64,000 bases of DNA. It comes from a bacterium. GTDB taxonomy: Bacteria > Patescibacteriota > Minisyncoccia > UBA6257 > GWB1-50-10. The DNA lies in NCBI GenBank assembly GCA_002686365.1, contig NZBZ01000004.1, positions 27,079 through 91,078 of the forward strand, written 5' to 3'. The position numbers and the translations under genes are program-made. The notes below the pieces were generated by a model that did no database searches, was not told the origin of the DNA, and was given only the letters and a program-made list of their open reading frames with translations. Shown piece by piece: positions 6,106-53,702 of the stretch (positions are counted from its first letter, which is position 1; each line of letters starts with the position of its first letter).

Positions 6106-6462
6106 ATGTCCGCCCTGACCAAGGCTACGAGACTTCTCGAGGCTCGTAAGGCGAGCATCGCAAGCGCGTTCGGTCTTCAGTCTTTCGCTGGTTTCGTCAA
6201 TGTCGTTCCGTCAGCGGAGACTCGTGTGATCTGCGTTGCTGTCGGATCGTCCGGCAACCAGAGGTACGTTCGTTTCCGTGTGCGATTCAAGCGCAACGGA
6301 GACTTCTACCGCGTCGAGATGACTCCGCTCGGCCGCAATACTCTCAAGGTCTCTAAGACCTTCGATGACCTGAAGGCGGCTCTCGCGACAGAGTGCAATG
6401 CGGACGCTGCGACCGAGCCCGCGACAACCTCCGCCCTTCATGGGGCTATGGCTCCCGCTTAG
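6106..6462 (+). CDS. Hypothetical protein (GC-rich islet A)
   Basis: ORF begins exactly where composition jumps to high GC; AGGGGAA SD-like motif 11 nt upstream. Confidence 0.4.
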   Translation: MSALTKATRLLEARKASIASAFGLQSFAGFVNVVPSAETRVICVAVGSSGNQRYVRFRVRFKRNGDFYRVEMTPLGRNTLKVSKTFDDLKAALATECNADAATEPATTSALHGAMAPA

Positions 6463-6640
6463 AGGAGACCAAGGAGGCTCTCCTGGACTGGACTGGATTC
6501 TCTTGCCGGCTCACCGGCATCACGGAGGCGTTGCACGTATGCGCCTCCTTTTATTCGAAAATGTTTAGTTGTAGTGAGGTATTGACAATATGTATTTGGT
6601 GGGGTATTTTAATTGTTAGAAATGGAAATGGAGGTGCTTC

Positions 6641-7081
6641 GTGGCAGCACCAGCAACTAAGTTAACAGTTGCTCTTCACGCGAAAAAGCTTACGAATGAG
6701 GAGCTTACAGCTTTCGCGTCAGCCATACAGGGAGACGCGTGCTCAAAGGCGGAACTTCAGGAAGAGACGTGGTTCAACAAGGTCGAGGCGCTCTTCGATG
6801 ATGACGGTGAACTGCCTCGGGCTGTGAAGGATGCTGTTTTCGTCCTTGTGCAACAAAGGGCGTGCGTGGCAGCAGCTGCTCTTTGTGCGGAAGAGCTTGA
6901 GGATCATGAGCTTGTAGCTTTCGCGTTGAGCGTAAAGCTGGGCAGATGCTCGAAGGCGGATCTGCAGAAAAAGCCGTGGTTCAACGAGAGGATTGAGGAG
7001 CTCTTCGATGATGACGGCGAGCTGTCTCAGGCTGTGAAGGATGCCGTCTTCGCTCTTGCAAATACAAGAATGGAGGCGTAG
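6641..7081 (+). CDS. Hypothetical protein with internal ~55-aa tandem duplication
   Basis: GTG start preceded by GGAGG 6 nt upstream; halves TAFASAIQGDACSKAELQEETWFNKVEALFDDDGELPRAVKDAVF / VAFALSVKLGRCSKADLQKKPWFNERIEELFDDDGELSQAVKDAVF. Confidence 0.45.
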   Translation: MAAPATKLTVALHAKKLTNEELTAFASAIQGDACSKAELQEETWFNKVEALFDDDGELPRAVKDAVFVLVQQRACVAAAALCAEELEDHELVAFALSVKLGRCSKADLQKKPWFNERIEELFDDDGELSQAVKDAVFALANTRMEA

Positions 7082-7108
7082 GTATAAGCGTAATGGGTTT
7101 GGTACTAT

Positions 7109-7894
7109 GTGCTGAGCCTATCCATCCCTTTAAATTTGGCGGCGAGTTTTGATGAAGAGAATTCCGTTGTAGATTTTTCTTGGGCGAGTTCGACGGATTC
7201 TGATACGTTAGATAATTTAATTACATACGAGGTGGCGCATACGACTTCGACGGATTTGTCGGGGGTTTCGTGGAGTTCGGTTGGGTCGTTTTTGCAGACG
7301 AGTTTGGATTTGGGTTTTGGGGAGACGTATCTTATTGGTGTGCGAGCAAAGGATGATTTTGAGAATGTGTCGGATTCGACGGAGATTTTTTATGATGTGC
7401 CTGTTCCGGAGTTGCCGCTTACGATTTCAAATGTCTGGTGGGGATATGTTAGTAGTTCGGCGGCGCAGGAACTTAGTTTTGAATTTAGTAATTATGATGT
7501 GCTTGTGTCGAGTACGTGGACTGTTGCGGCGTTTTATTTGAATTCGATTGTGCCGGATAAAGGCCCGTGGCCGACAGGCTTAAATAATCTTTTGAATGAC
7601 GGTGAGGAGAAAATTTGGGTTCGGTATCAAGGGTGTTTTGGAAGTGCTATTACGACAGAATTTTCTTTGGCAGGGGATGGTGCGTCGTGTGCTGGCGATG
7701 TCAGGAATAGTTATGATCCGTCTGGGGTGGACTTTCCGGAAGTAGGGGAGGTGGTTATGGAAGTTAGTCCGCCAGCTGGTGAAGAATCTCATTCTTCAGA
7801 GGACTATATTACAATTCTTTTTCTTTCATCTAGTGATGGAAGTAATTTCCAACAAGTTGGGAGGTACCCTGTGCCGATTTACTTTACGGAGTGA
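7109..7894 (+). pseudogene. FN3-like domain protein fragment (no N-terminus or signal peptide, GTG start directly after an in-frame stop)
   Basis: Sequence ITYEVAHTTSTDLSGVSWSSVGS...TYLIGVRAKDDFENVS resembles a fibronectin type III fold but the ORF starts mid-domain; C-terminus FQQVGRYPVPIYFTE is repeated downstream. Confidence 0.4.
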
Positions 7895-7895
7895 T
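7849..7895 (+). repeat. Copy 1 of ~45-bp boundary repeat (encodes FQQVGRYPVPIYFTE-stop at the end of ORF 7109..7894)
   Basis: Near-identical to 8968-9015; partial copies at 10186-10215 and 10727-10750. Confidence 0.8.
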
Positions 7896-7908
7896 GCTTT
7901 GAAAACAT

Positions 7909-7955
7909 TTATTTTTACTTAGTTTAGTATCCGGCCGGATACTAAACTAAGTTTA
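7909..7955 (+). terminator. Perfect 18-bp-arm palindrome (ACTTAGTTTAGTATCCGG/CCGGATACTAAACTAAGT) followed by a T-tract and GGGAGG
   Basis: Read directly; rho-independent terminator geometry. Confidence 0.6.
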
Positions 7956-8085
7956 GGTTTTTGGGAGGGGGGGGTAGTGCTTGACGCGTAGTATGATGTG
8001 TGTTACTTTTTGTATCGGCAGGGTGGGGTACATTTCGGTAGCATGAGGTATGTTGCCTTGTGCAAAACAGCGAGGATGGAACAAC

Positions 8086-8874
8086 ATGTCGTTGGTTTTT
8101 ACAGATAAGGTAGCAAGCGTTGAAGTACTGGATGCGTTCCTTGTGGACAAGGGTGTTGACCCGGGATTCATCTCGAGGATGGTGAATGCTTTGACTCCGC
8201 TCGTTCAGGAGTATGAGCCCGAGGGACGGGAAAGGGAGTGGCCGCATCTCCTCGAGGCAGGATTTATGGACCCCGAGAGCCTGGGGAGGGCGATCGTTGG
8301 GGCGACCGGAGTAGATTTGCCCATCGTCTTGGTTCCACTTGCGGACGTTGAGTGTCCGCCCAATTGGGTCGCGGAGGACTTCAGGCCTTTGATTCAGGGG
8401 ATGAGCCGGCTGGCTCTCGATGCGTCGCTCGGCGCTCCCTTGTACGGGATGCTGGGGCATGATCCAGAGGCGCAAGTGGATGGTGATCCTCACGGAATCG
8501 TTCGGATGCTCGAGACCGCGTTCGCCACACACATCTGGCATAGTGATGATACGGGACAGCCCCTGATGACGGATGGAAACGTCGTGGGCTTCCTCCGCGG
8601 CCTCATTGTCCAGAGACTCCTCGAAGACGGAAACGCAGGGGCGATAAATGAGGCTAGTGGGTCTTCACTCGCGGACAGCGCATGGGCGCTTATCCGAAAG
8701 GTCCTCATTGAGGCGGTGGAAGGAAGGTGTGAGGAGGCAGAGAAAACATGCACGCTTCTCAAGTTCTGGATGACGAACTGGGTCTGGGGAAGATCCAGCG
8801 AGGATGTGGGCATTGGTAGGGGGATGATTGTTTTCGCGGGCGAGACACATCCAGCAAGATTGGTGAGTGTATGA
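8086..8874 (+). CDS. Hypothetical protein (cassette 1 of GC-rich array)
   Basis: ATG at 8086 with GAGGA SD 7 nt upstream (ORF track begins at 8050); GC-rich, Ala/Gly/Arg-rich product. Confidence 0.45.
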   Translation: MSLVFTDKVASVEVLDAFLVDKGVDPGFISRMVNALTPLVQEYEPEGREREWPHLLEAGFMDPESLGRAIVGATGVDLPIVLVPLADVECPPNWVAEDFRPLIQGMSRLALDASLGAPLYGMLGHDPEAQVDGDPHGIVRMLETAFATHIWHSDDTGQPLMTDGNVVGFLRGLIVQRLLEDGNAGAINEASGSSLADSAWALIRKVLIEAVEGRCEEAEKTCTLLKFWMTNWVWGRSSEDVGIGRGMIVFAGETHPARLVSV

Positions 8875-8967
8875 TTGTTTTCGTGGGCTAGGCTTGGCCA
8901 GAACGAATGACGATCATCGTCATCTCACATCGAACAAAAGGAAGGCACGTATGCCTTCCTCTTTTAT

Positions 8968-9015
8968 TTCCAACAAATTGGGAGGTATCCTGTGCCGATA
9001 TATTTCACGGAATAG
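8968..9015 (+). repeat. Copy 2 of boundary repeat (encodes FQQIGRYPVPIYFTE-stop as an orphan remnant, stop 19 codons upstream)
   Basis: Aligned by eye to 7849-7895 with a few substitutions. Confidence 0.8.
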
Positions 9016-9016
9016 G

Positions 9017-9056
9017 CAATGTTTACTCACTCGGAGAGTAAACATTGGGTTTTTTG
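9017..9056 (+). terminator. Hairpin CAATGTTTACTC...GAGTAAACATTG followed by GGTTTTTTGGGG
   Basis: 12-bp inverted repeat arms plus T-tract. Confidence 0.6.
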
Positions 9057-9214
9057 GGGATTTTGTTGGTGTATTTTTGATACATTGACAAAATGTGTGA
9101 TAAATGTTACTTTCTGTTTAGATCTAACTCTAGTCTAAATGTCATTTTTCATTGCGATCTGAGCAGCTGAACACTAAGTTTCGTTCATGTCTCGTACGCA
9201 CGAGGAGTGTTACG

Positions 9215-9715
9215 ATGTTAGGCATAGGACCGACGTCTAAGATACAGGCAGAGAATCTTCGTGACTTCGTTGGCCCCCTCTGCACGCGTTTCTACGTGAA
9301 GAGGCTCAGAGCCGCTCTCGTGAAGGAGGGGAGGGTTCTACTAGATGTGGGGTTGACTGAGAGGAAGTTGGAGAGTCTTCGTCGGCAAGGTGAGAAGCGG
9401 GCTGGGATGTATCATATGTCCTGGCGCAGGAGGAACTATCTTCATCTGGTGCGGCATCATCTGGGACTGGCGCATCTCAATCTCTTGCAATGGCTTCTGG
9501 CGCAGTTCGTTACCCGCCTTCCGCTCATGGGTCGGATGTGGGGAGCTGCTTTGTCCTCGATGGCATTCGTGCTCAGAGTTCCTGTTCCGGATGATCCTCA
9601 CAGGATCATTCGCGAAGATTACGAGCGGAGCATAGCGGAAGAGGATGATGGTGGTCTCTGGGGTCTAAGCCAATCTTCTCCTTCCTGGACTGGAGGGAAT
9701 TCTCATGACAGATAA
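9215..9715 (+). CDS. Hypothetical protein (cassette 2)
   Basis: ATG with GAGGAG SD 7 nt upstream (ORF track uses an upstream TTG at 9152). Confidence 0.4.
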   Translation: MLGIGPTSKIQAENLRDFVGPLCTRFYVKRLRAALVKEGRVLLDVGLTERKLESLRRQGEKRAGMYHMSWRRRNYLHLVRHHLGLAHLNLLQWLLAQFVTRLPLMGRMWGAALSSMAFVLRVPVPDDPHRIIREDYERSIAEEDDGGLWGLSQSSPSWTGGNSHDR

Positions 9716-10109
9716 ACTTCGGTTCTCGCGGGATGTGCTGGAGTTTCGCGATCCTCGGCCGGGGGAGGTCAAGGAGTCGAAGGAGCCGTCGCCAATACAG
9801 TCGTGGCGGATGAGGATCGTCGGTGAGGGGCGGGATGGTGTTTACGACGTCTTCGTTGATTTGGATGACGTCGTTTCCATCAACTTCTCGATCGACGATG
9901 CTAGCGTGAGGATTCTCATCAATAACAAGAGGTATTCGCTTCGGGCGTATACTCGTGTTGAAGGGTCTTCTCAAATAGTGGGCCTTCGTCCCGCGATTCT
10001 TCATCGGCTGTGTCCGGGAGTTGCTCTGAACTGCCCGTGGCAGTCAGAGCATGAGTCACAGGTATCATTGGATGACCTGGGCATCATCGAGGCGCAATTG
10101 GTGCGGTAG
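9705..10109 (+). CDS. Hypothetical protein (cassette 2, overlaps the previous gene by 11 nt)
   Basis: ATG with GGAGGG SD 8 nt upstream; overlapping two-gene arrangement. Confidence 0.4.
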   Translation: MTDKLRFSRDVLEFRDPRPGEVKESKEPSPIQSWRMRIVGEGRDGVYDVFVDLDDVVSINFSIDDASVRILINNKRYSLRAYTRVEGSSQIVGLRPAILHRLCPGVALNCPWQSEHESQVSLDDLGIIEAQLVR

Positions 10110-10185
10110 GTCACAGGCAGAGAGGTTCTGCTTGCTGTCGACGTAAGTGAGGGTTTGTCCAACGGACGCCCTCTTTTTTGTTTGT

Positions 10186-10215
10186 TAATATCCTGTTCCG
10201 ATATATTTTGAGGAG
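10186..10215 (+). repeat. Degenerate copy 3 of boundary repeat (TATCCTGTTCCGATATATTTTGAGGAGTAG)
   Basis: 25/30 identity to copy 2 by eye. Confidence 0.5.
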
Positions 10216-10239
10216 TAGGTTTTTTATGTCGGTGCTTGA

Positions 10240-10261
10240 CACACTATGTATAGTGTGTCAT
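10240..10261. promoter_or_regulatory. Perfect palindrome GACACACTATGTATAGTGTGTC overlapping a TTGACA hexamer
   Basis: Read directly; operator-like. Confidence 0.4.
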
Positions 10262-10299
10262 TGTTATATATAACTATCGTTCATTTAAATTGTTATGTA

Positions 10300-10352
10300 G
10301 CAGGTTAGAGCAACCGAATTGGTCTTTTTGGGAGATTAGTTCGGTTGCTCTA
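10300..10352 (+). promoter_or_regulatory. Long hairpin (GTTAGAGCAACCGAA...TTCGGTTGCTCTAAC, 15-bp arms) with TTTTTGGGAG in the loop
   Basis: Read directly; upstream of ORF 10398. Confidence 0.45.
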
Positions 10353-10397
10353 ACTATACGGTGCCGTTTGTCACTCTTGCAGGAGGAATGAGAAGTA

Positions 10398-10637
10398 ATG
10401 GTTTCTGATAAGAAGTCTAGTGAGGTCTGGGACGATGACATGACTGAGGAGGAGCGACTCGCTTTTCTCGAGTTGCTTGAGGGGTGTTCTCTCATCAGTC
10501 GGGAAAACTATCCGGATCTTTCCGACCTTGCTCAGAGGAGTTTCGACGACCTACCTTCCGCGCTCTGTGGCTGTCTCCGTTTGGCACGAGAAGGCGATGG
10601 ATTTAAGGCCATCTCATTGATGGATGCAACTCAGTAA
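10398..10637 (+). CDS. Small acidic hypothetical protein (cassette 3)
   Basis: GGAGG SD 8 nt upstream of ATG; 79 aa. Confidence 0.35.
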   Translation: MVSDKKSSEVWDDDMTEEERLAFLELLEGCSLISRENYPDLSDLAQRSFDDLPSALCGCLRLAREGDGFKAISLMDATQ

Positions 10638-10726
10638 GTAGGTGATGCGGTGGCTGAGTTACAATAGTGCACGTTTACGGCACTAAGTGGAGCGTTCGCG
10701 AAATAAGATTCGCTGCGCTCCCTTTT

Positions 10727-10750
10727 TATTTTAGGAATAGGCAATGTTTA
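10727..10750 (+). repeat. Remnant 4 of boundary repeat (GGAATAGGCAATGTTTA shared with 9009-9025)
   Basis: 17-nt identity to the distal part of copy 2. Confidence 0.45.
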
Positions 10751-11195: not shown

Positions 11196-11255
11196 TTAGT
11201 AAAAGCTTCATTTAGAAAAGAGGAGGCTAGAATTAATGGGAAGGATACGAAGAGA

Positions 11256-12778: not shown

Positions 12779-12828
12779 ATAATGTGGTGTGAAATATTGC
12801 TTTTTTCTTTAGGGTATGGCGTACTGGT

Positions 12829-13320
12829 TTGCAGGTGTCGGGGTGGAGACTAATTACTATTTCGGATGCTGGAGGGGGATTTGTGAAATATCCTGTTGCT
12901 TTCGCTCTAGTTATTATCGCGTTTGTTGTTGTTGGAGACGGAGAGCGTGTGGGCTATGCGGTTTTGTATCTGACGTCCTCTCGAATTTCGGAGTATACGT
13001 CAGAGCAGATCGCAGACATGCAGAGCGCCTTGGAGGCTCGGTTCGAAGAGGTGTATTGGAGAGAGAAGATTCGCATTAGCGAATTTCATCCTCGCGCCGA
13101 GTTTATTCTTCCCGTTTTTGCCAGCTTCTTTGCTGATGATCCTAGGGTGCATGTGGAGCTTACGTTTATCATGCATCGTGAGGGCAGGGATCATATCATA
13201 TATGCTGACGGCGTGACAGCGCCTCAGCTAAAGGCGGATGAGGTGGCGCTGGATCGCGCCTTTCGGGCAATGTGCATCATTGTCTTGATCGCTGACAATG
13301 CGTCAGTGGCAGTGCAATAG
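12829..13320 (+). CDS. Hypothetical membrane protein (GC-rich islet C)
   Basis: TTG/GTG start uncertain; alternative overlapping ORF 12816..13079; high GC keeps several frames open. Confidence 0.3.
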   Translation: MQVSGWRLITISDAGGGFVKYPVAFALVIIAFVVVGDGERVGYAVLYLTSSRISEYTSEQIADMQSALEARFEEVYWREKIRISEFHPRAEFILPVFASFFADDPRVHVELTFIMHREGRDHIIYADGVTAPQLKADEVALDRAFRAMCIIVLIADNASVAVQ

Positions 13321-13459
13321 CGAGTGCAGCAGTCGAGGGGATATTATTGAGGGCTTGTCTATTGGGCATCCCTCTTTTTTGTTTATTTGTAAGCCGGATT
13401 TTTAGATATTGGAAATTATTGATTGTTTTTCTTGTTTATGGTCTAATTGCTTTTAGTTT

Positions 13460-14125
13460 GTGTACTGGGAATCTCGCGTGTCGTCCTGTAACTGTTCCGG
13501 AAGGAGGCCTCTAGTGGCCTTTCGTCGATCGTTCAGAAGGGCAGTGGACTTCGCTGGGATCGGGCCGTTCCTCGTGTTCTGCTTTCCTTACCTCTGGACG
13601 GATGTGTTCGTCGGTGGTGGGATCGAGTCCCTGTTAGCTCCCACGCTCATTTTGGTCTCCGCGGCCATCTTGTGGCTTGGGCGTTCTGTGGCCACGCTCT
13701 TTGAGGGAGACTGTAAGACTCCTAAGAGCATGAGGCAGTGTGGACTCCTTATCGTGCTGTTGTGGATTTCCACAACGTTGAGCACGCGGCTCTTCCTCGG
13801 TCTTCAGTGGGTTCCACTCGCCTTCCTGTCTGCGCCCATACTCTGGCATCTTGGGTGGGAGACATACTGGATCCGGCTCGCGTTCTGGCGATATTCCTAT
13901 AGGATAGAGGGTGACTTTCACGGCGTTGGGCCAGAAGATCTTGCCGAGATTCTCAGGGGTGCGACTGGGCGGGTCTGGGATGTTCCGGCTGTTCCTAGTG
14001 ATCCGTATATTCTTCCCTGGGATCCTCCGTCCAATGACGCGCTTGAGGATGCTGTTCTGTGGATTGGAGGGAAGCTGGGCGACGACGACAAGGTTCGAAT
14101 CGTCCCGTACTACAGGGGGTCTTGA
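13460..14125 (+). CDS. Hypothetical polytopic membrane protein (GC-rich islet C)
   Basis: GTG start; about four TM helices; 221 aa. Confidence 0.4.
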   Translation: MYWESRVSSCNCSGRRPLVAFRRSFRRAVDFAGIGPFLVFCFPYLWTDVFVGGGIESLLAPTLILVSAAILWLGRSVATLFEGDCKTPKSMRQCGLLIVLLWISTTLSTRLFLGLQWVPLAFLSAPILWHLGWETYWIRLAFWRYSYRIEGDFHGVGPEDLAEILRGATGRVWDVPAVPSDPYILPWDPPSNDALEDAVLWIGGKLGDDDKVRIVPYYRGS

Positions 14126-14139
14126 TTCGTGTTCGAAAA

Positions 14140-14172
14140 CCGGATAACTGCGTGTTATCCGGCCTTTTTTAT
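14140..14172 (+). terminator. Rho-independent terminator CCGGATAAC-TGCGT-GTTATCCGG then CCTTTTTT
   Basis: 9-bp perfect stem plus T-tract immediately after ORF 13460..14125. Confidence 0.65.
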
Positions 14173-14890: not shown

Positions 14891-15007
14891 CTTTGGGGCT
14901 TTTTTGTTTGGATTTGACCAAAGCTTGGTTTTTTGTAAGAGTTTGGAGTGGTTCTTGTCTCGTTCGTGCTCGTCACCTTCTTCTGAGATTCTGAGAGAGG
15001 ATACGTA

Positions 15008-15409
15008 ATGTCTCCGAATATGAATATTAAGCTTTCGTTCCTGGATAGTCTCCCATTCTGGGGAGTGATCATCTCAGTGCTCTTGGTCCCCTTGGTCCCC
15101 GTGTATTTGTTTCACTTCTTCCTGCGCGAAATCGGCATGCCATGGAATCTGCTTCCTGTGTTTCCGACTGTTCTCGCGTTTTACCTTGGCTACACCTGTC
15201 GAAGGTATGGTAGTCGATCTGACGGCAGGGGTATTATGCGAGTTGCGGGCTCTATCGCGCTTGTCCTTGGTGTTCTTTGCGGAGGGGTTGGCGCTGCAAT
15301 TATTGTTAATGGCCTATGCGCCTTTTTCTTTGTAGGCGCGCCGATACTTTTTTGGGGTATTGGCTGGGGCATTGCTTGGGGCATTGGCTTAGCCTTGCCC
15401 CGCATATAA
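15008..15409 (+). CDS. Hypothetical membrane protein (small GC-richer islet, GAGAGAGGA SD)
   Basis: 133 aa, 3-4 TM helices, GWGIAWGIG tail. Confidence 0.35.
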   Translation: MSPNMNIKLSFLDSLPFWGVIISVLLVPLVPVYLFHFFLREIGMPWNLLPVFPTVLAFYLGYTCRRYGSRSDGRGIMRVAGSIALVLGVLCGGVGAAIIVNGLCAFFFVGAPILFWGIGWGIAWGIGLALPRI

Positions 15410-15467
15410 GTTGGCTAGATAGGGGAGGTAGTTTTCGTAGGGGATCTCTTGCAGCGTGCAGGAGATT

Positions 15468-21254: not shown

Positions 21255-21366
21255 TGGTGGTCAGGCAGTGTTTTTTACTTCTTTTGAGGTTTTGTGTTAA
21301 GCTTCCCGGTGGCTTCAGAGGGGGGAGTTTCTGGCGCTGTGTTCACAACTTGTAGGAGGTTCTGTT

Positions 21367-21858
21367 ATGAAATGCTTTCTCTTGGCTGTTCTTCTGTGCA
21401 TCCTCGTCGCACCTCTTTGTTCTTGTAGTAAGTTGAGTCCTTATGTGGCTGAAGATGGTGTTCTTCGCTGGGATAGGGATGGAGCGTTTATTCCAGACCA
21501 AAGCATTAGGCGCTCTGCACTTCTGCCAATTGATGTGTGTGTTGTGGTGACTGGAGATGTGCCTGTTATAGGTGTTTCAATGGTCATTCGCGGTGATGTG
21601 GATCTTAGAGGCACGGCTGTCAGGTCGCGTATGGGTCTGATGTTGGCGTCGAATGTTCATAATGATGGGAGGCTTCATATAGAGGCTGCAGGTCTCTATC
21701 CTTTGCCTCAGGGGGTATATGAACTTTTCACGCTTCTCATTCCTGCATCTGGAATTTCGCAATTTCGACTTTGGCTTGACGAGGTCCAGTTTAATGAGAT
21801 GTTGGTCTTGGAGGGAGGCCTTCCTGTGCCTGGTCGTATTAGCGTTCTGTTCAGGTAG
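21367..21858 (+). CDS. Hypothetical lipoprotein-like protein
   Basis: LAVLLCILVAPLCSC signal plus lipobox-like Cys; GTAGGAGG SD; slightly GC-richer than its neighbours. Confidence 0.4.
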   Translation: MKCFLLAVLLCILVAPLCSCSKLSPYVAEDGVLRWDRDGAFIPDQSIRRSALLPIDVCVVVTGDVPVIGVSMVIRGDVDLRGTAVRSRMGLMLASNVHNDGRLHIEAAGLYPLPQGVYELFTLLIPASGISQFRLWLDEVQFNEMLVLEGGLPVPGRISVLFR

Positions 21859-21916
21859 GCGGTGTAGTTTCGTAGAGTCGCGCAGCGTTGTGCGACTTTT
21901 TCATTTTTTGGGTATA

Positions 21917-26343: not shown

Positions 26344-26408
26344 ATGTTACCTCGCCAAGGCGGGGTCCTCAACTTCGTGGCTTCGCTGCGCTCAGACGAA
26401 GTTGGGAA

Positions 26409-26471
26409 ATACGGAATGGGGGCTAAGGATATAAAGGAGGCGGTGAGGAGGGTATTGAAGAGAAAGAAATA
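26409..26471 (+). repeat. GC-richer duplicate of the transketolase 3-prime end (encodes YGMGAKDIKEAVRRVLKRKK-stop)
   Basis: Compared with 26281-26343 (YGMGVEDIKRAVNKVLKRKR-stop); preceded by hairpin CAACTTCGT...ACGAAGTTG at 26371-26405. Confidence 0.6.
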
Positions 26472-26542
26472 GATTGATTTTGTTTGTATAAAAACAGGAA
26501 CCTTTTGGAGGTTCCTTTTCGTGGACGGCCGAGTTGGTTCGG

Positions 26543-27142
26543 TCAGGCGGCTATCTTAGCGATTTGGATAGCCTTTTGTCGCACCCAGCTTACTCTTGCG
26601 AGGTCTTGTATGAGCTGTATGGCCTCTTCGGTGCTTCTGGTCAGCTCTACAGCTGTGTCGTCTTGTCCCTCGACTCGTTGTCCGAGCGCCTTCTCAGCCT
26701 CTCCTCGGTTGGTATCGTTGAGGTTGCATACGATTATTCGTAGTGCAACTCGTGCTGTTCCATCGTTCATGATGAGGGCTTCGGCTGTTTCCATGTCTAC
26801 ATGAACCCAGCTGACCTTACTCAGATCCACCTGCTCTGGCTGTTCACTGGTCAACACCACCTCGTCCGGTACGTGGGTGAGATGTATCGTGAGTATGTTC
26901 CCGGCATCATCTCCCAGATCCCGAACTATCTTCAGGTTTCTTACGGTGGTTTTCGTGGTGATTTCCACCGAACCCTCTGGCATGCCGAGTAGTTCTCTTA
27001 TCTCCGACATTGCCTGCTCGGCAACTCCCATTCCTCCCATGAGCATGCGGACCCCGACTTCTTTGTCGTCTGGCATTTGCTCGATGAAGCCATCCAGCCC
27101 TGGGGAGTTAAATATGGTGGGCATTCGTTCTTCCCTTCTCAT
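26543..27142 (-). CDS. Hypothetical protein (GC-rich islet D)
   Basis: 199 aa, acidic; composition differs sharply from flanking genes. Confidence 0.4.
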   Translation of the reverse strand: MRREERMPTIFNSPGLDGFIEQMPDDKEVGVRMLMGGMGVAEQAMSEIRELLGMPEGSVEITTKTTVRNLKIVRDLGDDAGNILTIHLTHVPDEVVLTSEQPEQVDLSKVSWVHVDMETAEALIMNDGTARVALRIIVCNLNDTNRGEAEKALGQRVEGQDDTAVELTRSTEEAIQLIQDLARVSWVRQKAIQIAKIAA

Positions 27143-27299
27143 CCATGAGTCTGTGGGCTGTTAGGCCCTTTTTGGCGCGTAAGGCGCGAGCGCGGATCCG
27201 AATTTAGGGTATCTTCTTTCTGTTTATTTTGCAATATTTTGCCATTATTTTGCGTTTTGAACAGTGGTTTCCGGAGCTTTTTTGAGATATAATGGTCTT

Positions 27300-32799: not shown

Positions 32800-32967
32800 C
32801 TCCCGACCTCCTATTGACAAAAATCTACGTATGTGTTACAGTAGATTCTTATTGTGGTAGGATGACATCTGCTCATTAAAAACTGAGGTCTCCCTCCTTC
32901 ACAGGGAGAAGCGCCGTAGCACGTTGGTTTGGGCGCTTCTCCACTGTTTGAAGAAGGGAGATAGACC

Positions 32968-33330
32968 GTGCTTATAGAAGTGCCTGATGACTTCGGCGAA
33001 CGTCTCATCAATCTGTTGGACAAGCTCGACGCCAAATCGTATGCGCGCATAGCAACCGCTCTGCACGCACAACGTCTACTCCGCCAGTTGAAGGTCAGCG
33101 ACGCACCCGGCTCCGTTTGCCGGAAGTGTTGGAAACAGGTTGATCCCATCGTCTGCGCGTTCACAAGAGATGACCACTCTGACGAGGCGGCGGTTTCTGT
33201 GACCGATGCTGTGGAGGAGATTCTCGACTGCATAAACTTCAGAGACGCCGCTGACACTCCAATCCGCGTGGATCTGGTCATCACGCCACAGCATGAGATC
33301 GCCGAGCCACAGCCCGGTCTTACAACGTAG
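32968..33330 (+). CDS. Hypothetical protein (GC-rich islet E)
   Basis: GTG start with AAGGGAG SD. Confidence 0.35.
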   Translation: MLIEVPDDFGERLINLLDKLDAKSYARIATALHAQRLLRQLKVSDAPGSVCRKCWKQVDPIVCAFTRDDHSDEAAVSVTDAVEEILDCINFRDAADTPIRVDLVITPQHEIAEPQPGLTT

Positions 33331-33472
33331 TGTAATGCGATACGCTACCAGCGTAAACGAGCCGCCCTTTGGGTGGCTTTTCCATTCCTTCCCCACCGTC
33401 TCGTCATTACAGCCCGTCCCACTTCACGTATACTCGCCTTACCCCAAACCAGACCAACATGAGGGAAGGCAC

Positions 33473-33889
33473 ATGACTCCGAACGCCGGGCGTTCACAAC
33501 CGTCCTCAGAATCAGGCGACGTCGGATCCTCAAACGCCTTCATAGACTCTTGGTACGAGAAACTAGGGCAGCAAGTCCCCCGCCCCGTGCTGGACGACGC
33601 CCTAAACGCCATGTTTGATGGCGGCCACGAGGCCCGGATCTCCTTGTATGAGTTTCTAGATTCGGACGAATTACAGGCCAGCGAGAAAGCTGCACGCATG
33701 TGGTCGTTCTACGTCGAGTGGGCCAAAGTGCAGCGCGCTCTCAAACTCTTGCAGCTCGACAGGGCAGAAGACGCTCAGGAACTGCTAGATGATCCGCTCG
33801 TCTTTCAAGGGCGTGTGCCAGACTTACAGCTTCAGGTTGATAGCTACACCTTAGAAAGGATTTCGTTTATGGAAGTAGGTCAGTTCTAG
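33473..33889 (+). CDS. Hypothetical protein (GC-rich islet E)
   Basis: ATG with GAGGGAAGG SD; the ORF track extends upstream to 33293. Confidence 0.3.
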   Translation: MTPNAGRSQPSSESGDVGSSNAFIDSWYEKLGQQVPRPVLDDALNAMFDGGHEARISLYEFLDSDELQASEKAARMWSFYVEWAKVQRALKLLQLDRAEDAQELLDDPLVFQGRVPDLQLQVDSYTLERISFMEVGQF

Positions 33890-33958
33890 CTTTTAGCTTC
33901 ATTTCCGCCAGAGGCGGATCCGCCTTGGGCGGAAGCTATTAGCTTCATTAGCTTATAG
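33886..33958. repeat. AGCTTTTAGCTTCATT...AGCTTCATTAGCTTATAG repeat unit interrupted by two small GC hairpins (TCCGCCAGAGGCGGA, TCCGCCTTGGGCGGA)
   Basis: Member of the repeat family also at 42489, 45532, 46727, 48496, 52577 and 54403. Confidence 0.7.
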
Positions 33959-37797: not shown

Positions 37798-37817
37798 GTT
37801 TTTAGCTTGTTTGGCAA
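37798..37817 (+). repeat. Left copy of 20-bp perfect direct repeat GTTTTTAGCTTGTTTGGCAA flanking islet F
   Basis: Identical to 38652-38671. Confidence 0.85.
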
Positions 37818-37920
37818 CCCCTGTTTTCGGGTTTTGTAAAAAAATCCGCCTCGGCAGTGAGATGCTTTGGCGGGTGTACGATGTTTGCGGGGCGTGATGG
37901 CTCGGCCACGTTCGCGCGGG

Positions 37921-38571
37921 TCAGGCGGTGAGTGCGACCCAGACGTTGGGATCTTGTCCCCATTTGCCCGTAGGAGGATGCGCGACGATGACTTCCACGA
38001 GAGGCTTCCACTTCGTGAGCATGTCGGTGTTGTCATTTGCCGCACAGGCTATGAGTATTCGTAGGATGTAGTCGATTCCTCCCTCCAGACACTTCTGGGG
38101 CGTTTCGGGGAGGCCGATGTTCCTGACAGTGGAGCACACTTCTTGGGAGAAGGCTTCGTATGCCTCGTCGAGGCCTTTCGGCATCTCCAGGCCTTCGGCC
38201 AGCTTGTCGAGTATGATCGTAGATACGTACCCGTCGTCTGGAACGCTATCTACGAAGAGTGTCTCGAGCTCGCCTTTGGTGATAGGGCCGTATGCAAGGA
38301 GATTCTCCCACAGCTCTTCGTCGGCCCATTCGGGTCGCGTGTCAGGTACTGGATTGCTTGCCGAGAGATGAATTACTCTCTCGACTCTTTCTGTCAGCGT
38401 TCTCAGAAGTGCCTGTTGGATCTTCTTTGTGTCGCAGTCGTCTCCTGATGTCAGGCTCCATCCAGCTTCGGTTGCCTGGAGAATGGGCCTGATTGTTTCC
38501 TCCAAGGCATCAACTGTTGTCTCGTCCGTGTGTTCGAGCAGAGCGACTTGCAGACGTTCCCAGCTTTCCAT
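37921..38571 (-). CDS. Hypothetical protein (GC-rich islet F)
   Basis: ATG with AGGGAGG SD 9 nt upstream; 216 aa acidic. Confidence 0.45.
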   Translation of the reverse strand: MESWERLQVALLEHTDETTVDALEETIRPILQATEAGWSLTSGDDCDTKKIQQALLRTLTERVERVIHLSASNPVPDTRPEWADEELWENLLAYGPITKGELETLFVDSVPDDGYVSTIILDKLAEGLEMPKGLDEAYEAFSQEVCSTVRNIGLPETPQKCLEGGIDYILRILIACAANDNTDMLTKWKPLVEVIVAHPPTGKWGQDPNVWVALTA

Positions 38572-38651
38572 TGGGGAGCCTCCCTTTTGGCGGCGCTGGC
38601 GTTTAGGGCGTCACTGTGTTTTTTGTACTTGTTTTTTACTTGTGTGTCAAT

Positions 38652-38671
38652 GTTTTTAGCTTGTTTGGCAA
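38652..38671 (+). repeat. Right copy of 20-bp perfect direct repeat GTTTTTAGCTTGTTTGGCAA
   Basis: Identical to 37798-37817; brackets an 834-bp GC-rich insert. Confidence 0.85.
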
Positions 38672-38720: not shown

Positions 38721-38823
38721 AGAAGCTGGTTTTTTTCTGCCCTGACAGATGTTTGACATATGTAGTAGTAGGTAATTAACAGAGGTGTTAATAATAGAGA
38801 ATTTTTTTAGTTGTCCCAATTTA

Positions 38824-40312
<1,489 letters not shown>

Positions 40313-52110: not shown

Positions 52111-52126
52111 TAATACTGATTACTAG

Positions 52127-52579
52127 ATGACTATCTATTGGATACTAACTGTTTTAATTGCGGCATTGCCTGTGGCAGAGCTTCGTGGGGCAATACCTTT
52201 GGCTGTTTTTGTATGGAATATTTCTCCGCTTACTGCTTTTTTTCTTGCTGTTATTGGAAATTTTTTGATAGTTATTCCGCTGCTATGGTTTTGGCATTTT
52301 GCTGTTCACAGACTCGCAAAGAGATATCATTTTGTGCATCGTTGTAAGGAGTGGATGTTTGATAGGACGCATCGCAGGCATGGCGGGAAGTTTGAGCTTT
52401 TGAAGGAGTTTGCATTGTTTTTCTTAGTCGCAATTCCTTTGCCTTTTACCGGAGCATGGACTGGAACTGTTGCTGCTTATCTTTTTGGCGTGCCGTTTTG
52501 GAGGGCAGTTTTATGGATTGGTCTTGGAATTATTTTCGCAGGAATTTTGGTTGGTGTGGGGGTGGGGCTTTTTGTGTAG
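52127..52579 (+). CDS. COG2426-like small polytopic membrane protein
   Basis: PVAELRGAIPLAV motif, four TM helices. Confidence 0.5.
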   Translation: MTIYWILTVLIAALPVAELRGAIPLAVFVWNISPLTAFFLAVIGNFLIVIPLLWFWHFAVHRLAKRYHFVHRCKEWMFDRTHRRHGGKFELLKEFALFFLVAIPLPFTGAWTGTVAAYLFGVPFWRAVLWIGLGIIFAGILVGVGVGLFV

Positions 52580-52610
52580 CTTATAGCTTTTAGCTTCATT
52601 AGCTTTTAGC
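52577..52610. repeat. TAGCTTATAGCTTTTAGCTTCATTAGCTTTTAGC repeat
   Basis: Family member, overlaps the stop of the preceding gene. Confidence 0.75.
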
Positions 52611-52645
52611 ACGAAAAAAACCGCTTAATGCGGGTAGTAGTTGGC

Positions 52646-52687
52646 GGACGCCTTTTCTCTCGGATGAGTAGGCGTCCGCCAATGCGT
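52646..52687. promoter_or_regulatory. 12-bp-arm inverted repeat TTGGCGGACGCC...GGCGTCCGCCAA at the left edge of islet G
   Basis: Read directly. Confidence 0.4.
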
Positions 52688-53113
52688 TCTCTAGCTGGGT
52701 CTTGGGTGATGCGTGCATGCCTTTCACCGGTGTTTGCACGCCCTCTTTGTGAGCTGGGCAAGCACCGCAGTTTTCCCCCGTTTCCCGGCACTCTACAGCG
52801 CCCTCGTTGATACCCACCTACACTCTCTCCGTAGAGAGAGGAGGTGGGTATCAGGACGTGTCGTGCTTGTCAAAGCAGATGCGCATTTCTGCGCTTAACT
52901 CCTTGTGGCTGGGTCTGACGTAGTCCCTTGTGGGTTTTATCTCAGGCCACAGTAGGTAACTAGCTAGGAGTGTATCACAATTTTTGTGTTTTGCAATTTC
53001 ATTGATTTTGGGGAGTTTGTGGAGATTGACAGAGGTTTTATGGGGTGATATATAGAAGTTAGGTCTTGAGTCGTGTCTTGAAGTCTGGGGCCTCTGGATT
53101 GGGAAGGAAGGAC

Positions 53114-53350
53114 ATGCCAGACACATCTTTTGGCGGTGACAATTATGGCGAGTGCTCTGACTGTGGCGATGAGGCCACTTGCAGTCATTGGGGACCCCTT
53201 GCTCCTCTGGGAGAGGTGTGGCGTTTCTGCGAGCACTGCTTTGGCTGGCGCAGGCATGAGCACGATGAGCATGATGGGGGCGGTGAGGAGTTTTCTCCCA
53301 AGCCCCTTGGTCATACATGGCCTGAACAGGATCCACCGCAGGCGTCTTAG
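53114..53350 (+). CDS. Small Cys/His-rich hypothetical protein (islet G)
   Basis: GGAAGGAAGG SD; CSDCGDEATCSHW...CEHCFGW zinc-ribbon-like spacing; several overlapping ORFs in this GC-rich stretch make the call uncertain. Confidence 0.3.
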   Translation: MPDTSFGGDNYGECSDCGDEATCSHWGPLAPLGEVWRFCEHCFGWRRHEHDEHDGGGEEFSPKPLGHTWPEQDPPQAS

Positions 53351-53408
53351 CAGCTTAGCATTGCAGCAGCAGTGTGAGGCGCGCGATTAGAGAGGATGTG
53401 AGAGGCTT

Positions 53409-53702
53409 ATGTCAAAATCTCTTACTGGGTGGGAAGTTCACGCTGGCAGGAGACGAGGCAGTGGTGTGGTTTTCAGGATTTGGATTCCACGTGCGCGGCA
53501 GTACGCAACCTCGGCTCTGTCTGAGTGCAGCGTACGGGCCTGGATCGAACGGGATTTCACTGAGCGTGACGTGTTATGGTGGGACATCAATTCCCTGGTG
53601 GATAACGCTAGGGCGTTTGGAGCCTCTTGGCAGCCGAGCGAGAGACGTAACAAGCGTCGCATGGGTCGTTGGGCGAGGGAGTTGCGACGAGTAGCGGCAT
53701 AA
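53409..53702 (+). CDS. Hypothetical basic protein (islet G)
   Basis: GAGAGG SD 8 nt upstream of ATG. Confidence 0.3.
   Translation: MSKSLTGWEVHAGRRRGSGVVFRIWIPRARQYATSALSECSVRAWIERDFTERDVLWWDINSLVDNARAFGASWQPSERRNKRRMGRWARELRRVAA

What the first reader, a model, noticed from the sequence alone, without database searches (positions are those of the whole stretch)
6106..53702. Mosaic of small GC-rich, SD-bearing islets in an AT-rich, SD-poor core
At least nine short segments stand out by composition from the core: 6106-7100, 7896-10750, 12800-14135, 14950-15420, 26344-27190, 32300-33890, 37818-38651, 52612-53702, and weakly 21255-21900. Their ORFs have no recognisable function and are Ala/Arg/Gly-rich. 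Nearly all carry strong Shine-Dalgarno sites (GGAGG, AGGAGG, AGGGAGG) at 6-10 nt from the start. Core housekeeping genes (rplU, gap, tkt, fba, pilins, tpiA, rpoC) mostly lack SD and often have a TATAAT box 6-7 nt before the ATG. This pattern is what one expects for DNA acquired from a higher-GC, SD-using donor (for example a host bacterium or its phage) by an organism that has largely abandoned SD-led initiation.
Basis: partly seen in the sequence, partly recalled or inferred. Interest (0 to 1): 0.7.

Follow-up and report, generated by a model that had tools for sequence, protein, structure and literature searches.

The report
Foreign gene islets in ultra-small bacterium
A marine ultra-small (CPR/Parcubacteria-type) bacterium whose ribosome has lost the site that reads Shine-Dalgarno signals carries about a dozen short GC-rich gene fragments that still have those signals, so they are most likely recently imported DNA, useful as a natural marker of gene transfer but not a new kind of system.

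Summary
Nine segments (0.45-2.9 kb, 52-55% GC; I9 is weak at 49%) sit in a 42.8% GC core. Their ORFs have GC3 0.59 against 0.38. They carry strong Shine-Dalgarno (SD) sites and sigma-70-type promoters with long leaders, whereas core genes are SD-less and often leaderless.

New here: the window's own 16S rRNA ends ...GGAUUAAUUCGUUU, so the anti-SD CCUCC is gone. This is a known trait of about half of Parcubacteria.

The junctions are reproduced at 99.9-100% identity in independent Tara Oceans assemblies, so this is not a chimera. None of 17 islet ORFs hits Pfam, against 38 of 47 core genes. Two were searched against billions of proteins. One found only itself; the other found one weak homologue, in a high-GC contig.

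The islets look like fragments that entered by recombination:
- I6 cuts pilC after about 112 codons.
- I5 carries a GC-rich copy of the neighbouring tktC tail.
- I7 is flanked by a perfect 20-bp direct repeat.
- I2 is three modules separated by copies of a native gene's 3' end.

Verdict: horizontally acquired islets in an anti-SD-less lineage. The donor is unidentified. Two hints point to a GC-richer, SD-using relative rather than a host or phage. No close relative was available for a synteny test.

The parts
6080..7121 (+). Islet I1 (GC 0.536). It holds two SD-led ORFs: 6106-6462 (118 aa) and 6641-7081 (146 aa, with an internal repeat of about 70 aa). A TTGACA-N17-TATTTT promoter lies at 6582. 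The right edge abuts the 5'-truncated native ORF 7109-7894.
   Evidence: In another assembly (ERZ11848503 NODE_790) the sequence after 7121 is instead a promoter plus a signal-peptide N-terminus.
7109..7894 (+). Native surface-protein remnant of core composition, lacking its 5' end in this haplotype. Its last 10-17 codons (..FQQVGRYPVPIYFTE*) are repeated inside I2.
7953..8962 (+). I2 module a (GC 0.553). ORF 8086-8874 (262 aa) follows promoter TTGACG-N17-TACTTT (7981) and has its own terminator. It is preceded by a perfect 36-bp palindromic terminator at 7917-7952.
   Evidence: (only self among 5.8 billion proteins)
8963..9150 (+). AT-rich spacer (GC 0.335). It holds a second copy of the native gene tail (FYFQQIGRYPVPIYFTE*, 8963-9016), a terminator hairpin, and promoter TTGACA-N17-TACTTT (9085).
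9151..10188 (+). I2 module b (GC 0.539). ORFs 9347-9715 and 9705-10109 both have GGAGG-type SD sites.
10189..10300 (+). AT-rich spacer (GC 0.312). It holds a third copy of the tail (YPVPIYFEE*, 10189-10218) and a TTGACA promoter-like site.
10301..10750 (+). I2 module c. It has a hairpin at 10304-10354, ORF 10398-10637 (79 aa, AGGAGG SD) and a terminator. It ends with a partial fourth tail copy, GGAATAGGCAATGTTTA (10733-10749).
12800..14150 (+). Islet I3, two modules. ORF 12883-13320 (145 aa) and ORF 13514-14125 (203 aa membrane protein) both have GGAGG SD sites. Weak 13-nt repeats lie at 12769, 13396 and 14247.
14990..15440 (+). Islet I4. ORF 15008-15409 (133 aa, hydrophobic) follows a short (197 aa) MscS gene that ends right after its beta-domain.
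21255..21900 (+). Weak islet I9. ORF 21367-21858 (163 aa, lipoprotein-like signal) has AGGAGG 7 nt before the ATG. Its composition is nearly core-like (GC3 0.42), so it may be an older import or a native gene.
26344..27200 (-). Islet I5. At 26373-26475 there is a GC-rich fragment of a second tktC 3' end (..KYGMGAKDIKEAVRRVLKRKK*). It sits 29-65 nt after the stop of the resident tktC. A bidirectional terminator and ORF 26543-27124 (193 aa, minus strand) follow.
   Evidence: The same junctions appear in two other Tara samples at 99.9% identity.
31978..32313 (+). pilC (T2SSF) remnant. Homology to full-length PilC of relatives (about 360 aa) stops after about 112 codons, at the I6 junction.
32314..33890 (.). 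Islet I6 (GC 0.543). ORF 32257-32799 (minus strand, AGGAGG SD) has its last 18 codons running into the antisense of the pilC remnant. Promoter TTGACA-N17-TACAGT lies at 32814. ORFs 32968-33330 and 33473-33889 are on the plus strand. The islet replaces the rest of pilC and the 3.5-6.5 kb that separate pilC from the pilin gene in relatives.
37798..37817 (+). Left copy of the perfect 20-bp direct repeat GTTTTTAGCTTGTTTGGCAA. It covers the -35 box and spacer of the rpmE promoter, read on the minus strand.
   Evidence: (score 40 against a shuffled maximum of 26)
37818..38651 (-). Islet I7 (GC 0.550). ORF 37921-38571 (216 aa, GGGAGG SD) has its own TTGACA-N17-TACAAA promoter. It is inserted between rpmE and the 16S rRNA promoter.
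38652..38671 (+). Right copy of the 20-bp direct repeat.
38823..40312 (+). 16S rRNA gene. Its 3' tail is GGAUUAAUUCGUUU, with no CCUCC anti-SD. It is not an islet despite its GC of 0.53.
   Evidence: literature PMC9297842 and PMC10783764
52612..53740 (+). Islet I8 (GC 0.542). It has promoter TTGACA-N17-TATATA, a zinc-ribbon-like ORF 53114-53350 (78 aa), and ORF 53409-53702 (97 aa). The overlapping frame 53374-53694 resembles the native surface protein 4966-6105 (26% over 93 aa).

Best explanation
The islets are short pieces of horizontally acquired DNA in the genome of a marine Parcubacteria/Paceibacteria-type CPR bacterium.

Shown:
- The host lineage translates without SD pairing. Its 16S rRNA lacks the anti-SD, and core genes are SD-less and often leaderless.
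- The islets keep the expression signals of an SD-using source that is about 10 points richer in GC: a -35/-10 promoter, a 25-120 nt leader, GGAGG 6-8 nt before the start, and GC3 of about 0.6.
- The islets are fragments, not tidy elements. Genes at their ends are cut, and native genes are truncated or partly duplicated at the junctions.

Inferred:
- The DNA entered by uptake. CPR cells carry type IV pilus and DNA-translocation genes, some of them in this window.
- It was fixed by recombination guided by short homology or by illegitimate joining, often together with deletion of native sequence.
- The imports are evolutionarily recent. The SD sites are useless to this ribosome yet have not decayed, and composition has not drifted toward the core.
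- The donor is more likely a GC-richer Patescibacterium that still has an anti-SD than a host or phage.

The function of the 17 encoded proteins is unknown. Their translation in this cell should be inefficient.
For: Host identity. This is a Tara Oceans station 37 mesopelagic population from the 0.1-0.22 um fraction. Its closest PilB relatives are Patescibacteria, Wolfebacteria and Paceibacterota MAGs.

Loss of SD use.
- The anti-SD is absent from the 16S rRNA.
- It is already reported missing in about half of Parcubacteria (PMC9297842; PMC10783764).
- Relatives also lack SD sites upstream of long ORFs.

Distinct islet properties.
- Composition and codon contrast.
- SD enrichment.
- Promoter and leader contrast.
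- Pfam hits in 38 of 47 core genes against 0 of 17 islet ORFs, Fisher p = 2e-9.
- The islets are unrelated to one another.

Insertion signatures.
- pilC is cut at 32313, with the foreign ORF reading on into its antisense.
- A tktC tail copy carries synonymous, GC-raising changes.
- A 20-bp perfect direct repeat flanks I7.
- Native tail copies lie between the I2 modules.
- A population variant retains the intact 5' end of ORF 7109.

Reality of the junctions. Independent assemblies and samples reproduce them.

Donor hints.
- The tktC' tail is 71% identical to the native tail. A Firmicute TktC tail is about 52% identical to the native tail and 43% to the I5 copy.
- An I8 frame is homologous to a Patescibacteria-type surface protein.
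- The only remote homologue of the I7 protein is SD-led and lies in a 58-74% GC contig.

Similar islets occur outside the window.
Against: - No donor sequence was found. The two islet proteins that were properly searched are orphans, so transfer is inferred from signals rather than demonstrated by phylogeny.
- The other 15 ORFs were tested only against profile libraries and against the phage, plasmid and PDB collections. The two concatenated-query searches failed technically.
- No close relative exists in the collections, so presence or absence at syntenic sites is untested.
- Random pieces of an ordinary bacterial genome should include some recognisable genes. Only a tktC tail and one weak surface-protein fragment were recognised.
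- Some core-composition genes also lack Pfam hits.
- No integrase, transposase or tRNA gene lies at any boundary.
- Only I7 and I2 have clear flanking repeats.
Confidence: 0.65

Rival explanations
1. The islets are mobile gene cassettes, not random fragments. Each module would integrate at a short sequence shared with the chromosome (a gene's 3' tail or a promoter). Integration would be by Campbell-type single crossover of a circular intermediate, or by an unidentified site-specific recombinase. Repeated hits at one site would build arrays such as I2. This concerns the mechanism of entry and is compatible with a foreign origin.
For: - I7 is bounded by a perfect 20-bp direct repeat, extending to 35 nt at 80% identity.
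- I2 consists of three different modules. They are separated by three to four copies of the last 10-17 codons plus the stop of ORF 7109-7894, and units 1 and 2 also share a promoter.
- Each module brings its own promoter, SD site and terminator.
Against: - Only two of nine islets show such repeats.
- I6 and I5 have cut genes at their ends, as random fragments would.
- No integrase or attC-like shared inverted repeat is present, and the islets share no sequence.
- No recombinase domain appears among the called genes in about 90 kb.
- The I2 pattern can equally be a decayed tandem array of paralogues whose bodies were replaced.
Confidence: 0.15
2. The islets are native, lineage-specific accessory genes of this Parcubacterium. 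Their GC richness and GGAGG motifs would have another cause, for example binding of a regulator, or an RNA-structure requirement for leadered mRNAs in a leaderless genome.
For: - CPR genomes are rich in orphan genes, and several core-composition genes here also lack Pfam hits.
- The islets are fixed in all samples seen.
- I9 has an SD site but nearly core-like composition.
Against: - A GGAGG placed 6-8 nt before starts has no known reader when the anti-SD is missing.
- GC3 is 0.59 against 0.38 under the same mutational regime.
- pilC is truncated and foreign-type gene fragments are present.
- The relatives examined show no comparable SD-led genes among their core genes.
Confidence: 0.12
3. The islets are decayed remnants of a prophage, a plasmid or another integrative element of a host bacterium.
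For: - The proteins are small, acidic orphans, and each module has its own promoter, as in mobile-element accessory genes.
- Homologues are almost absent among billions of proteins.
Against: - No PHROG, PADLOC or NCBIfam hit.
- No tblastn match in 50,697 phage or 72,556 plasmid records, and none in IMG/VR.
- No integrase, terminase, capsid or replication gene is present.
- The islets are scattered as nine or more separate pieces rather than forming one element.
- Two islets carry homologues of cellular Patescibacteria-type genes.
Confidence: 0.07
4. The islets are an assembly or binning artefact, that is, chimeric joins with reads from a GC-richer organism.
For: - Coverage is low, about 2.5-5x in some assemblies.
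- Contig ends coincide inside or near islets: 6594, 7967-7970, 13590-13597 and 32767-32821.
Against: - Core-islet junctions are reproduced at 99.9-100% identity by different assemblers and samples: ERZ909154, ERZ2773065, ERZ2773064, ERZ908531, ERZ11848503, GCA_001048895.1 and Logan ERR594290.
- Nine two-sided chimeric joins within 64 kb are implausible.
Confidence: 0.01

Closest known systems
Genomic islets / flexible-genome islands acquired by horizontal transfer (compositionally atypical DNA between core genes)
   Same: They have atypical GC and codon usage and orphan content. They lie between or at the ends of core genes, disrupt native genes, and one islet has a flanking direct repeat.
   Different: They are very small (0.45-1.6 kb per module) and very dense (about 17% of 64 kb in a reduced genome). 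No integrase, tRNA target or mobility gene is present. The foreign status is marked by a translation signal that the recipient's ribosome cannot read.
Anti-SD-less Parcubacteria (Tsurumaki et al. 2022, PMC9297842; class iv 'SD-scarce organisms lacking CCUCC', PMC10783764)
   Same: The 16S 3' tail lacks CCUCC. Core genes lack SD sites and many appear leaderless. The closest relatives include Wolfebacteria and Paceibacterota.
   Different: Those papers describe the loss of the anti-SD. In the passages read here, they do not describe SD-bearing islets inside such genomes.
Homology-facilitated illegitimate recombination after natural transformation (de Vries and Wackernagel model; from my own knowledge)
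   Same: Short foreign fragments are inserted next to sequences homologous to one of their ends (the tktC tail in I5). Native DNA is deleted (pilC in I6) and genes are cut at the junctions.
   Different: No long, high-identity anchor is visible, and the process was not observed. I7 and I2 show repeats more typical of Campbell-type or site-specific integration.
Integron gene-cassette arrays
   Same: I2 is an array of unrelated small orphan ORFs separated by a recurring short sequence.
   Different: The recurring sequence is the coding 3' end of a native gene plus a terminator and promoter, not an attC hairpin. The cassettes carry their own promoters, and no IntI integrase is present.

Membership tests
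Horizontally acquired genomic islets | Composition and codon usage deviate from the host core | tested here: met
   GC is 0.49-0.55 against 0.428. GC3 is 0.59 against 0.38. Codon log-likelihood ratios hardly overlap.
Horizontally acquired genomic islets | Absent from syntenic sites in close relatives | not testable with these tools
   The nearest genomes and contigs are only 63-71% identical in PilB, and synteny is lost beyond pilB-pilC-pilin. At that one conserved site relatives have full-length pilC and no islet.
Horizontally acquired genomic islets | Homologues in a plausible donor lineage | tested here: inconclusive
   The I2a protein found only itself. The I7 protein has one weak homologue, in a high-GC contig. 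The tktC' tail and an I8 fragment resemble Patescibacteria-type genes. Searches for the other ORFs failed or were limited to profile libraries.
Horizontally acquired genomic islets | Insertion scars (direct repeats, disrupted genes) | tested here: met
   A 20-bp direct repeat flanks I7, pilC is truncated at I6, the tktC tail is duplicated at I5, and native tails are repeated in I2.
Horizontally acquired genomic islets | Mobility genes (integrase or transposase) or a tRNA target | tested here: not met
   There are no tRNA genes in 64 kb. No recombinase domain appears among the called genes of about 90 kb or among the islet ORFs.
Anti-SD-less Parcubacteria | 16S rRNA 3' tail without CCUCC | tested here: met
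   The tail reads GGAUUAAUUCGUUU at 40299-40312, and no CCTCC occurs in the next 300 nt.
Anti-SD-less Parcubacteria | Genome-wide scarcity of SD sites upstream of genes | tested here: met
   Only 4 of 38 core starts reach -6 kcal/mol or lower, which is background level. Relatives behave the same way.
Integron cassette array | attC recombination sites bounding each cassette | tested here: not met
   The modules share no inverted-repeat element. The recurring unit is a coding gene tail plus a terminator.
Integron cassette array | IntI tyrosine recombinase with adjacent attI and Pc | tested here: not met
   No integrase domain appears in the window or in the 26 kb of extensions. The rest of the genome was not examined.
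Prophage or phage remnant | Phage hallmark or phage-family proteins | tested here: not met
   PHROGs gave no significant hit. tblastn against 50,697 phage records and three IMG/VR scans found nothing.
Insertion sequence / MITE | Terminal inverted repeats, a short target-site duplication, several related copies | tested here: not met
   The islets are unrelated to one another and have no terminal inverted repeats.
Polymorphic-toxin orphan cassette array | Repeated conserved pre-toxin motif followed by variable C-terminal toxin and immunity genes | tested here: not met
   The repeated piece is the extreme C-terminus plus the stop codon. The variable ORFs are separate genes with their own promoters, and no toxin or immunity domains were found.

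The most novel reading that the evidence does not exclude
The islets are units of a recombinase-free cassette exchange among CPR bacteria. Modules flanked by a copy of a resident gene tail or promoter would loop out by homologous recombination. They would travel as DNA taken up through the pilus/competence machinery, then re-enter at the same short homology in another genome. This would build arrays such as I2.

A more radical version: SD-led genes are kept intact in a cell whose ribosomes cannot read SD because they are meant to be expressed elsewhere, for example in an SD-using host cell.
Probability: 0.12. Interest if true: 0.8.

Novelty: new member of a known kind. Interest (0 to 1): 0.5.

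Why it matters
Loss of the anti-SD in part of the Parcubacteria turns the SD motif into a built-in label for imported genes. Any GGAGG-led ORF in such a genome is a candidate xenologue.

In this window the label, the composition and the junction scars agree. They show that a streamlined symbiont-type genome can carry about 17% recently imported orphan DNA. That DNA was inserted at the cost of native genes (pilC and a surface protein).

This bears on three questions:
- How much gene flow reaches CPR bacteria.
- Whether incompatible translation signals act as a barrier that silences newly acquired genes.
- How DNA taken up for nucleotide scavenging ends up in the chromosome.

It is not a new class of element.

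Tried and rejected
- Similarity among islets. blastn and tblastx found none apart from an internal repeat in I1 and short palindromes, so they are not copies of one element.
- Profile and structure libraries. Pfam, PHROGs, PADLOC, NCBIfam and PDB sequence searches of islet ORFs gave only sub-threshold noise: SapC at 23 bits, and phrog_11206 at E = 0.009.
- Concatenated queries. Two searches in the search for homologous proteins, each with 7-8 islet proteins joined, returned nothing, not even the proteins themselves. These are technical failures, not evidence of absence.
- Phage, plasmid and viral collections. tblastn of all 17 proteins against phages and plasmids, and three IMG/VR scans, found no match.
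- Structure prediction. AlphaFold2 models of the I7 protein (pLDDT 54) and the I2a protein (pLDDT 39) were too poor for a fold search, so none was run.
- Synteny with relatives. 160 loci anchored on PilB were too distant; only pilB-pilC...pilin is conserved. None of those loci contained a 16S gene, so their anti-SD could not be compared.
- Structured RNA. Rfam found only the 16S gene at gathering thresholds, and only chance-level hits in I8.
- DGR-type adenine mutagenesis for the tktC tail copy. Rejected: the changes are not confined to adenines and are largely synonymous.
- SD-led genes in relatives L025-L027. These looked interesting, but they encode Ser/Thr kinases and acyltransferases in loci of doubtful affinity. 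Not pursued.
- Flanking repeats. A systematic search at every islet gave a significant result only for I7; I2 has its tail copies.

Full report
WHAT THE WINDOW IS

The 64-kb window is 44.7% GC and has a strong, uniform G>C skew. It carries one complete bacterial 16S rRNA gene (38823-40312) and no tRNA genes.

Exact-protein look-ups place it in Tara Oceans station 37, mesopelagic, 0.1-0.22 um fraction. It also matches an NCBI MAG labelled only 'bacterium', with locus tags CL629_*.

The closest PilB relatives are Patescibacteria, Wolfebacteria and Paceibacterota MAGs, in both the GTDB species set and JGI metagenomes. They reach only 63-71% identity. The organism is therefore a marine Parcubacteria-type CPR bacterium with no close sequenced relative in the collections available.

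Core genes include:
- ribosomal and central-metabolism genes: rplU, gap, rpiB, rpe, split tkt, pfkB, fba and tpiA;
- transcription genes: rpoB and rpoC;
- two type IV pilus clusters with several pilins.

CHECKING THE OBSERVATION

With islets and rRNA removed, the core is 42.8% GC. Its 400-bp windows have sd 0.034 and a maximum of 0.50. The islets are 0.49-0.55.

The chosen islet reading frames have GC1/2/3 of 0.61/0.42/0.59. This is the normal signature of real coding sequence from a genome of about 54% GC. The core has 0.55/0.38/0.38.

SD sites were scored as duplex energy with the canonical anti-SD.
- Sixteen islet starts average -9.4 kcal/mol; 38 core starts average -1.9.
- I had chosen some starts knowing the motif, so I compared with all ATG/GTG codons inside the islets. 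Only 3.7% of those reach -9.5, against 9 of 16 ORF starts.
- This gives p about 1e-9, and p about 8e-5 if four candidate starts per ORF are allowed.

Twelve of 39 have a TATAAT-like hexamer ending 3-10 nt before the ATG, against none of 17 islet genes. Islet genes instead sit behind TTGACA-N17-TAnnnT promoters with leaders of 25-120 nt.

Ala and Arg are up, Gly is not, Trp and Cys are doubled, and Lys is halved.

THE KEY ADDITION: NO ANTI-SD IN THE RESIDENT RIBOSOME

The 16S gene ends ...AAGUCGUAACAAGGCACGCGUAGCGGAAGCUGUGCGUGGAUUAAUUCGUUU. The canonical GGAUCACCUCCUUA is replaced by GGAUUAAUUCGUUU, and no CCTCC follows downstream.

This is a known trait. The anti-SD motif was detected in only 48% of Parcubacteria (PMC9297842). 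Wolfebacteria and Campbellbacteria are listed among SD-scarce organisms lacking CCUCC (PMC10783764). The relatives fetched here likewise show essentially no SD sites before long ORFs.

So the SD-poor core is ordinary for this lineage. The SD sites in the islets cannot have been shaped by this cell's ribosome.

NOT A CHIMERA

Core-islet junctions recur at 99.9-100% identity in contigs from different assemblers and samples. These are ERZ909154, ERZ2773065, ERZ2773064, ERZ908531, ERZ11848503, ERZ5402418, Logan ERR594290 and GCA_001048895.1.

Contig ends do cluster at a few points inside islets: 7967-7970, 13590-13597 and 32767-32821. The first follows a 36-bp perfect palindrome and a G8 run. The others are unexplained. 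Coverage is low.

WHAT THE ISLETS CONTAIN

There are seventeen plausible ORFs of 78-262 aa. None has a significant Pfam, NCBIfam, PHROG, PADLOC or PDB-sequence match. By contrast, 38 of 47 core-composition genes have Pfam domains (Fisher p = 2e-9).

- The 262-aa I2a protein found only itself among 5.8 billion clustered proteins.
- The 216-aa I7 protein, scored by HMMER against 1.84 billion representatives, found itself plus one 202-aa protein. That hit had E = 5e-6, with 29% identity over the matched N-terminal stretch of about 87 residues and 23% over the full-length alignment.
- That homologue lies on a 3.7-kb contig of 58-74% GC, next to ComM- and TrmB-like genes, and has GGAGG 7 nt before its ATG.
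- Clusters at 90% identity are tiny and all come from the same Tara population.
- There is no similarity to phage, plasmid or IMG/VR sequences.
- The islets are unrelated to one another.

JUNCTION ANATOMY: THE MOST INFORMATIVE PART

I6. The T2SSF (pilC) ORF downstream of pilB is only 119 aa.
- Relatives have a PilC of about 360 aa, followed by 3.5-6.5 kb and then the pilin gene.
- Here the homology stops at about nucleotide 32313, and 1.58 kb of GC-rich DNA leads straight to the pilin promoter.
- The foreign minus-strand ORF (32257-32799) reads through the junction. Its last 18 codons are antisense pilC.
- Both genes are therefore cut. This is a fragment insertion combined with a deletion.

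I5. The resident tktC is complete.
- Starting 29-65 nt after its stop, there is a GC-rich fragment encoding ..KYGMGAKDIKEAVRRVLKRKK*. This is 70% identical to the native tail KYGMGVEDIKRAVNKVLKRKR*.
- Most of the differences are synonymous or raise GC. That is what an orthologue from a GC-richer genome would look like, not a mutated duplicate.
- The tail of a Firmicute split transketolase is about 52% identical to the native tail and 43% to the I5 copy.

I7. The 834-bp islet lies exactly between two perfect copies of GTTTTTAGCTTGTTTGGCAA. Read on the minus strand, this 20-mer is the -35 box and spacer of the rpmE promoter.

I2. This islet is composite.
- Three unrelated GC-rich modules are separated by AT-rich, core-like spacers.
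- The spacers repeat the last 10-17 codons and the stop of ORF 7109-7894: FQQVGRYPVPIYFTE*, FYFQQIGRYPVPIYFTE* and YPVPIYFEE*, plus a 17-nt fourth vestige.
- Each spacer has a terminator. In units 1 and 2 there is also a similar TTGACN-N17-TACTTT promoter.

ORF 7109-7894 is itself a 5'-truncated remnant. In assembly ERZ11848503 the sequence after 7121 is instead a TATAAT promoter and a signal-peptide start, MRKIYSSTFLVVFVIC...

I8. One frame resembles the native Patescibacteria-type surface protein 4966-6105. The match is 26% over 93 aa, with pairwise E = 2e-5 and tblastx E = 7e-4.

No other islet has significant flanking repeats. No integrase, transposase or tRNA gene is present in about 90 kb.

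INTERPRETATION

The simplest account is repeated import of short DNA fragments from one or more SD-using, GC-richer sources. The recipient genome has lost SD-dependent initiation. The fragments were fixed by recombination at or near short homologies, often with loss of native sequence.

That the imports are recent is an inference. It rests on intact ORFs, undecayed SD sites that are useless to this ribosome, and unameliorated GC3. I9, which has an SD site but nearly core-like composition, may be an older event.

The donor is unknown. Two points argue against random pieces of an ordinary host genome or of a phage:
- all ORFs are orphans;
- the two recognisable fragments, the tktC tail and the surface-protein repeat, are closest to this organism's own genes.

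These points fit a related Patescibacterium that retains its anti-SD. About half of Parcubacteria do, and their genomes are orphan-rich. I rate this donor as somewhat more likely than a host, but neither is shown.

The I7 repeat and the I2 array could alternatively mean that some modules are true cassettes that integrate at short homologies. The I2 pattern could equally be a decayed tandem array of paralogues whose bodies were replaced.

Uptake through the pilus/competence apparatus is assumed from general knowledge of CPR biology. The window does encode two pilus clusters and a VirD4/TraG-like ATPase.

COMPARISON WITH WHAT IS KNOWN, AND NOVELTY

Two elements are already known: compositionally atypical islets acquired by horizontal transfer, and anti-SD loss in Parcubacteria. 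What is worth noting is their conjunction.
- The SD motif becomes a label for imported genes.
- The islets are small and dense, about 17% of the window.
- They come at a visible cost to native genes in a reduced genome.

I file this as a new member of a known kind, with moderate interest. Similar GC-rich, Pfam-less, weakly SD-led ORFs lie just outside the window, so the phenomenon is probably genome-wide.

LIMITS

- There was no read-level data and no close relatives.
- Only two islet proteins were searched in depth, because two quota-limited searches were lost to a failed concatenation trick.
- Structure predictions were unusable.

Noticed in passing
window 40260-40640: The 16S rRNA 3' tail lacks the anti-SD (GGAUUAAUUCGUUU). 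The 16S gene stands alone: no 23S, 5S or tRNA gene follows within 24 kb, and no tRNA gene was found anywhere in the 64 kb. About 330 nt of hairpin-rich non-coding sequence follows the gene.
   Followed up: partly
window 7121/7122; L167 1-124: There is a structural polymorphism in the population. Assembly ERZ11848503 NODE_790 matches the window up to 7121. It then continues with an AT-rich promoter (TATAAT) and a gene start, MRKIYSSTFLVVFVIC... So the window haplotype has lost the 5' part of the surface-protein gene 7109-7894.
   Followed up: partly
window 13590-13597 and 32767-32821 (also 6594, 7967-7970): Contigs from independent assemblies end at the same few positions inside islets. The break at about 7970 follows a perfect 36-bp palindrome (7917-7952) and a G8 run. 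The others have no obvious cause and could reflect strain heterogeneity.
   Followed up: partly
window 14165-14276 and 20674-20795: An 8-bp-periodic degenerate tandem repeat (units such as ATATCGAG and ATTTAGAG) lies upstream of the MscS gene. A related repeat lies inside the PGA_cap-family gene 20139-21254.
   Followed up: no
window 33884-34020, 45536-45581, 46732-46777, 48555-48579, 52575-52612: A recurring AGCTTTTAGC / AGCTATAAGC motif and near-identical promoter blocks (..TTAGCTT[AT]TAG[AG]TTTTATAATAGATGT ATG) lie in front of several pilin genes and at two islet edges. This is probably a shared pilin promoter or regulatory element.
   Followed up: no
window 33903-33941 and 22704-22743: An identical 36-nt GC-rich palindromic element (TTCCGCCAGAGGCGGATCCGCCTTGGGCGGAA) occurs at two distant intergenic sites in opposite orientation. 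It looks like a REP-like element or a terminator.
   Followed up: no
window 48580-50940: A 786-aa protein with T4SS-DNA_transf, DUF87 and TrwB-type domains (VirD4/TraG-like coupling ATPase) is encoded next to the type IV pilus cluster (42591-48042). It could be relevant to DNA uptake or transfer.
   Followed up: no
window 14270-14863: The MscS-family gene is only 197 aa and ends right after the beta-domain, just before islet I4. A 289-aa paralogue exists 19 kb to the right of the window. This may be a second native gene truncated by an islet.
   Followed up: no
window 10908-11993: A DUF5667 gene of 95 aa is followed 60 nt later by a 245-aa ORF without domains. This may be a single gene split by a frameshift or stop.
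   Followed up: no
L163 (Logan SRR22387992 contig, 3.7 kb): The only remote homologue of the I7 protein sits in a 58-74% GC contig. There it is itself the lowest-GC gene (about 57%), next to ComM- and TrmB-like genes. It may be mobile cargo in that organism too.
   Followed up: partly
L167 15601-16200; L168 19950-21600: Further GC-rich (0.50-0.57), Pfam-less ORFs with SD-like motifs lie outside the window on the same chromosome. They occur at a similar density of about one per 7-10 kb.
   Followed up: partly
whole window: The cumulative GC skew rises monotonically (+36 over 64 kb) and most genes are on the plus strand, so the window lies within one replichore. The islets have much weaker skew than the core.
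   Followed up: no
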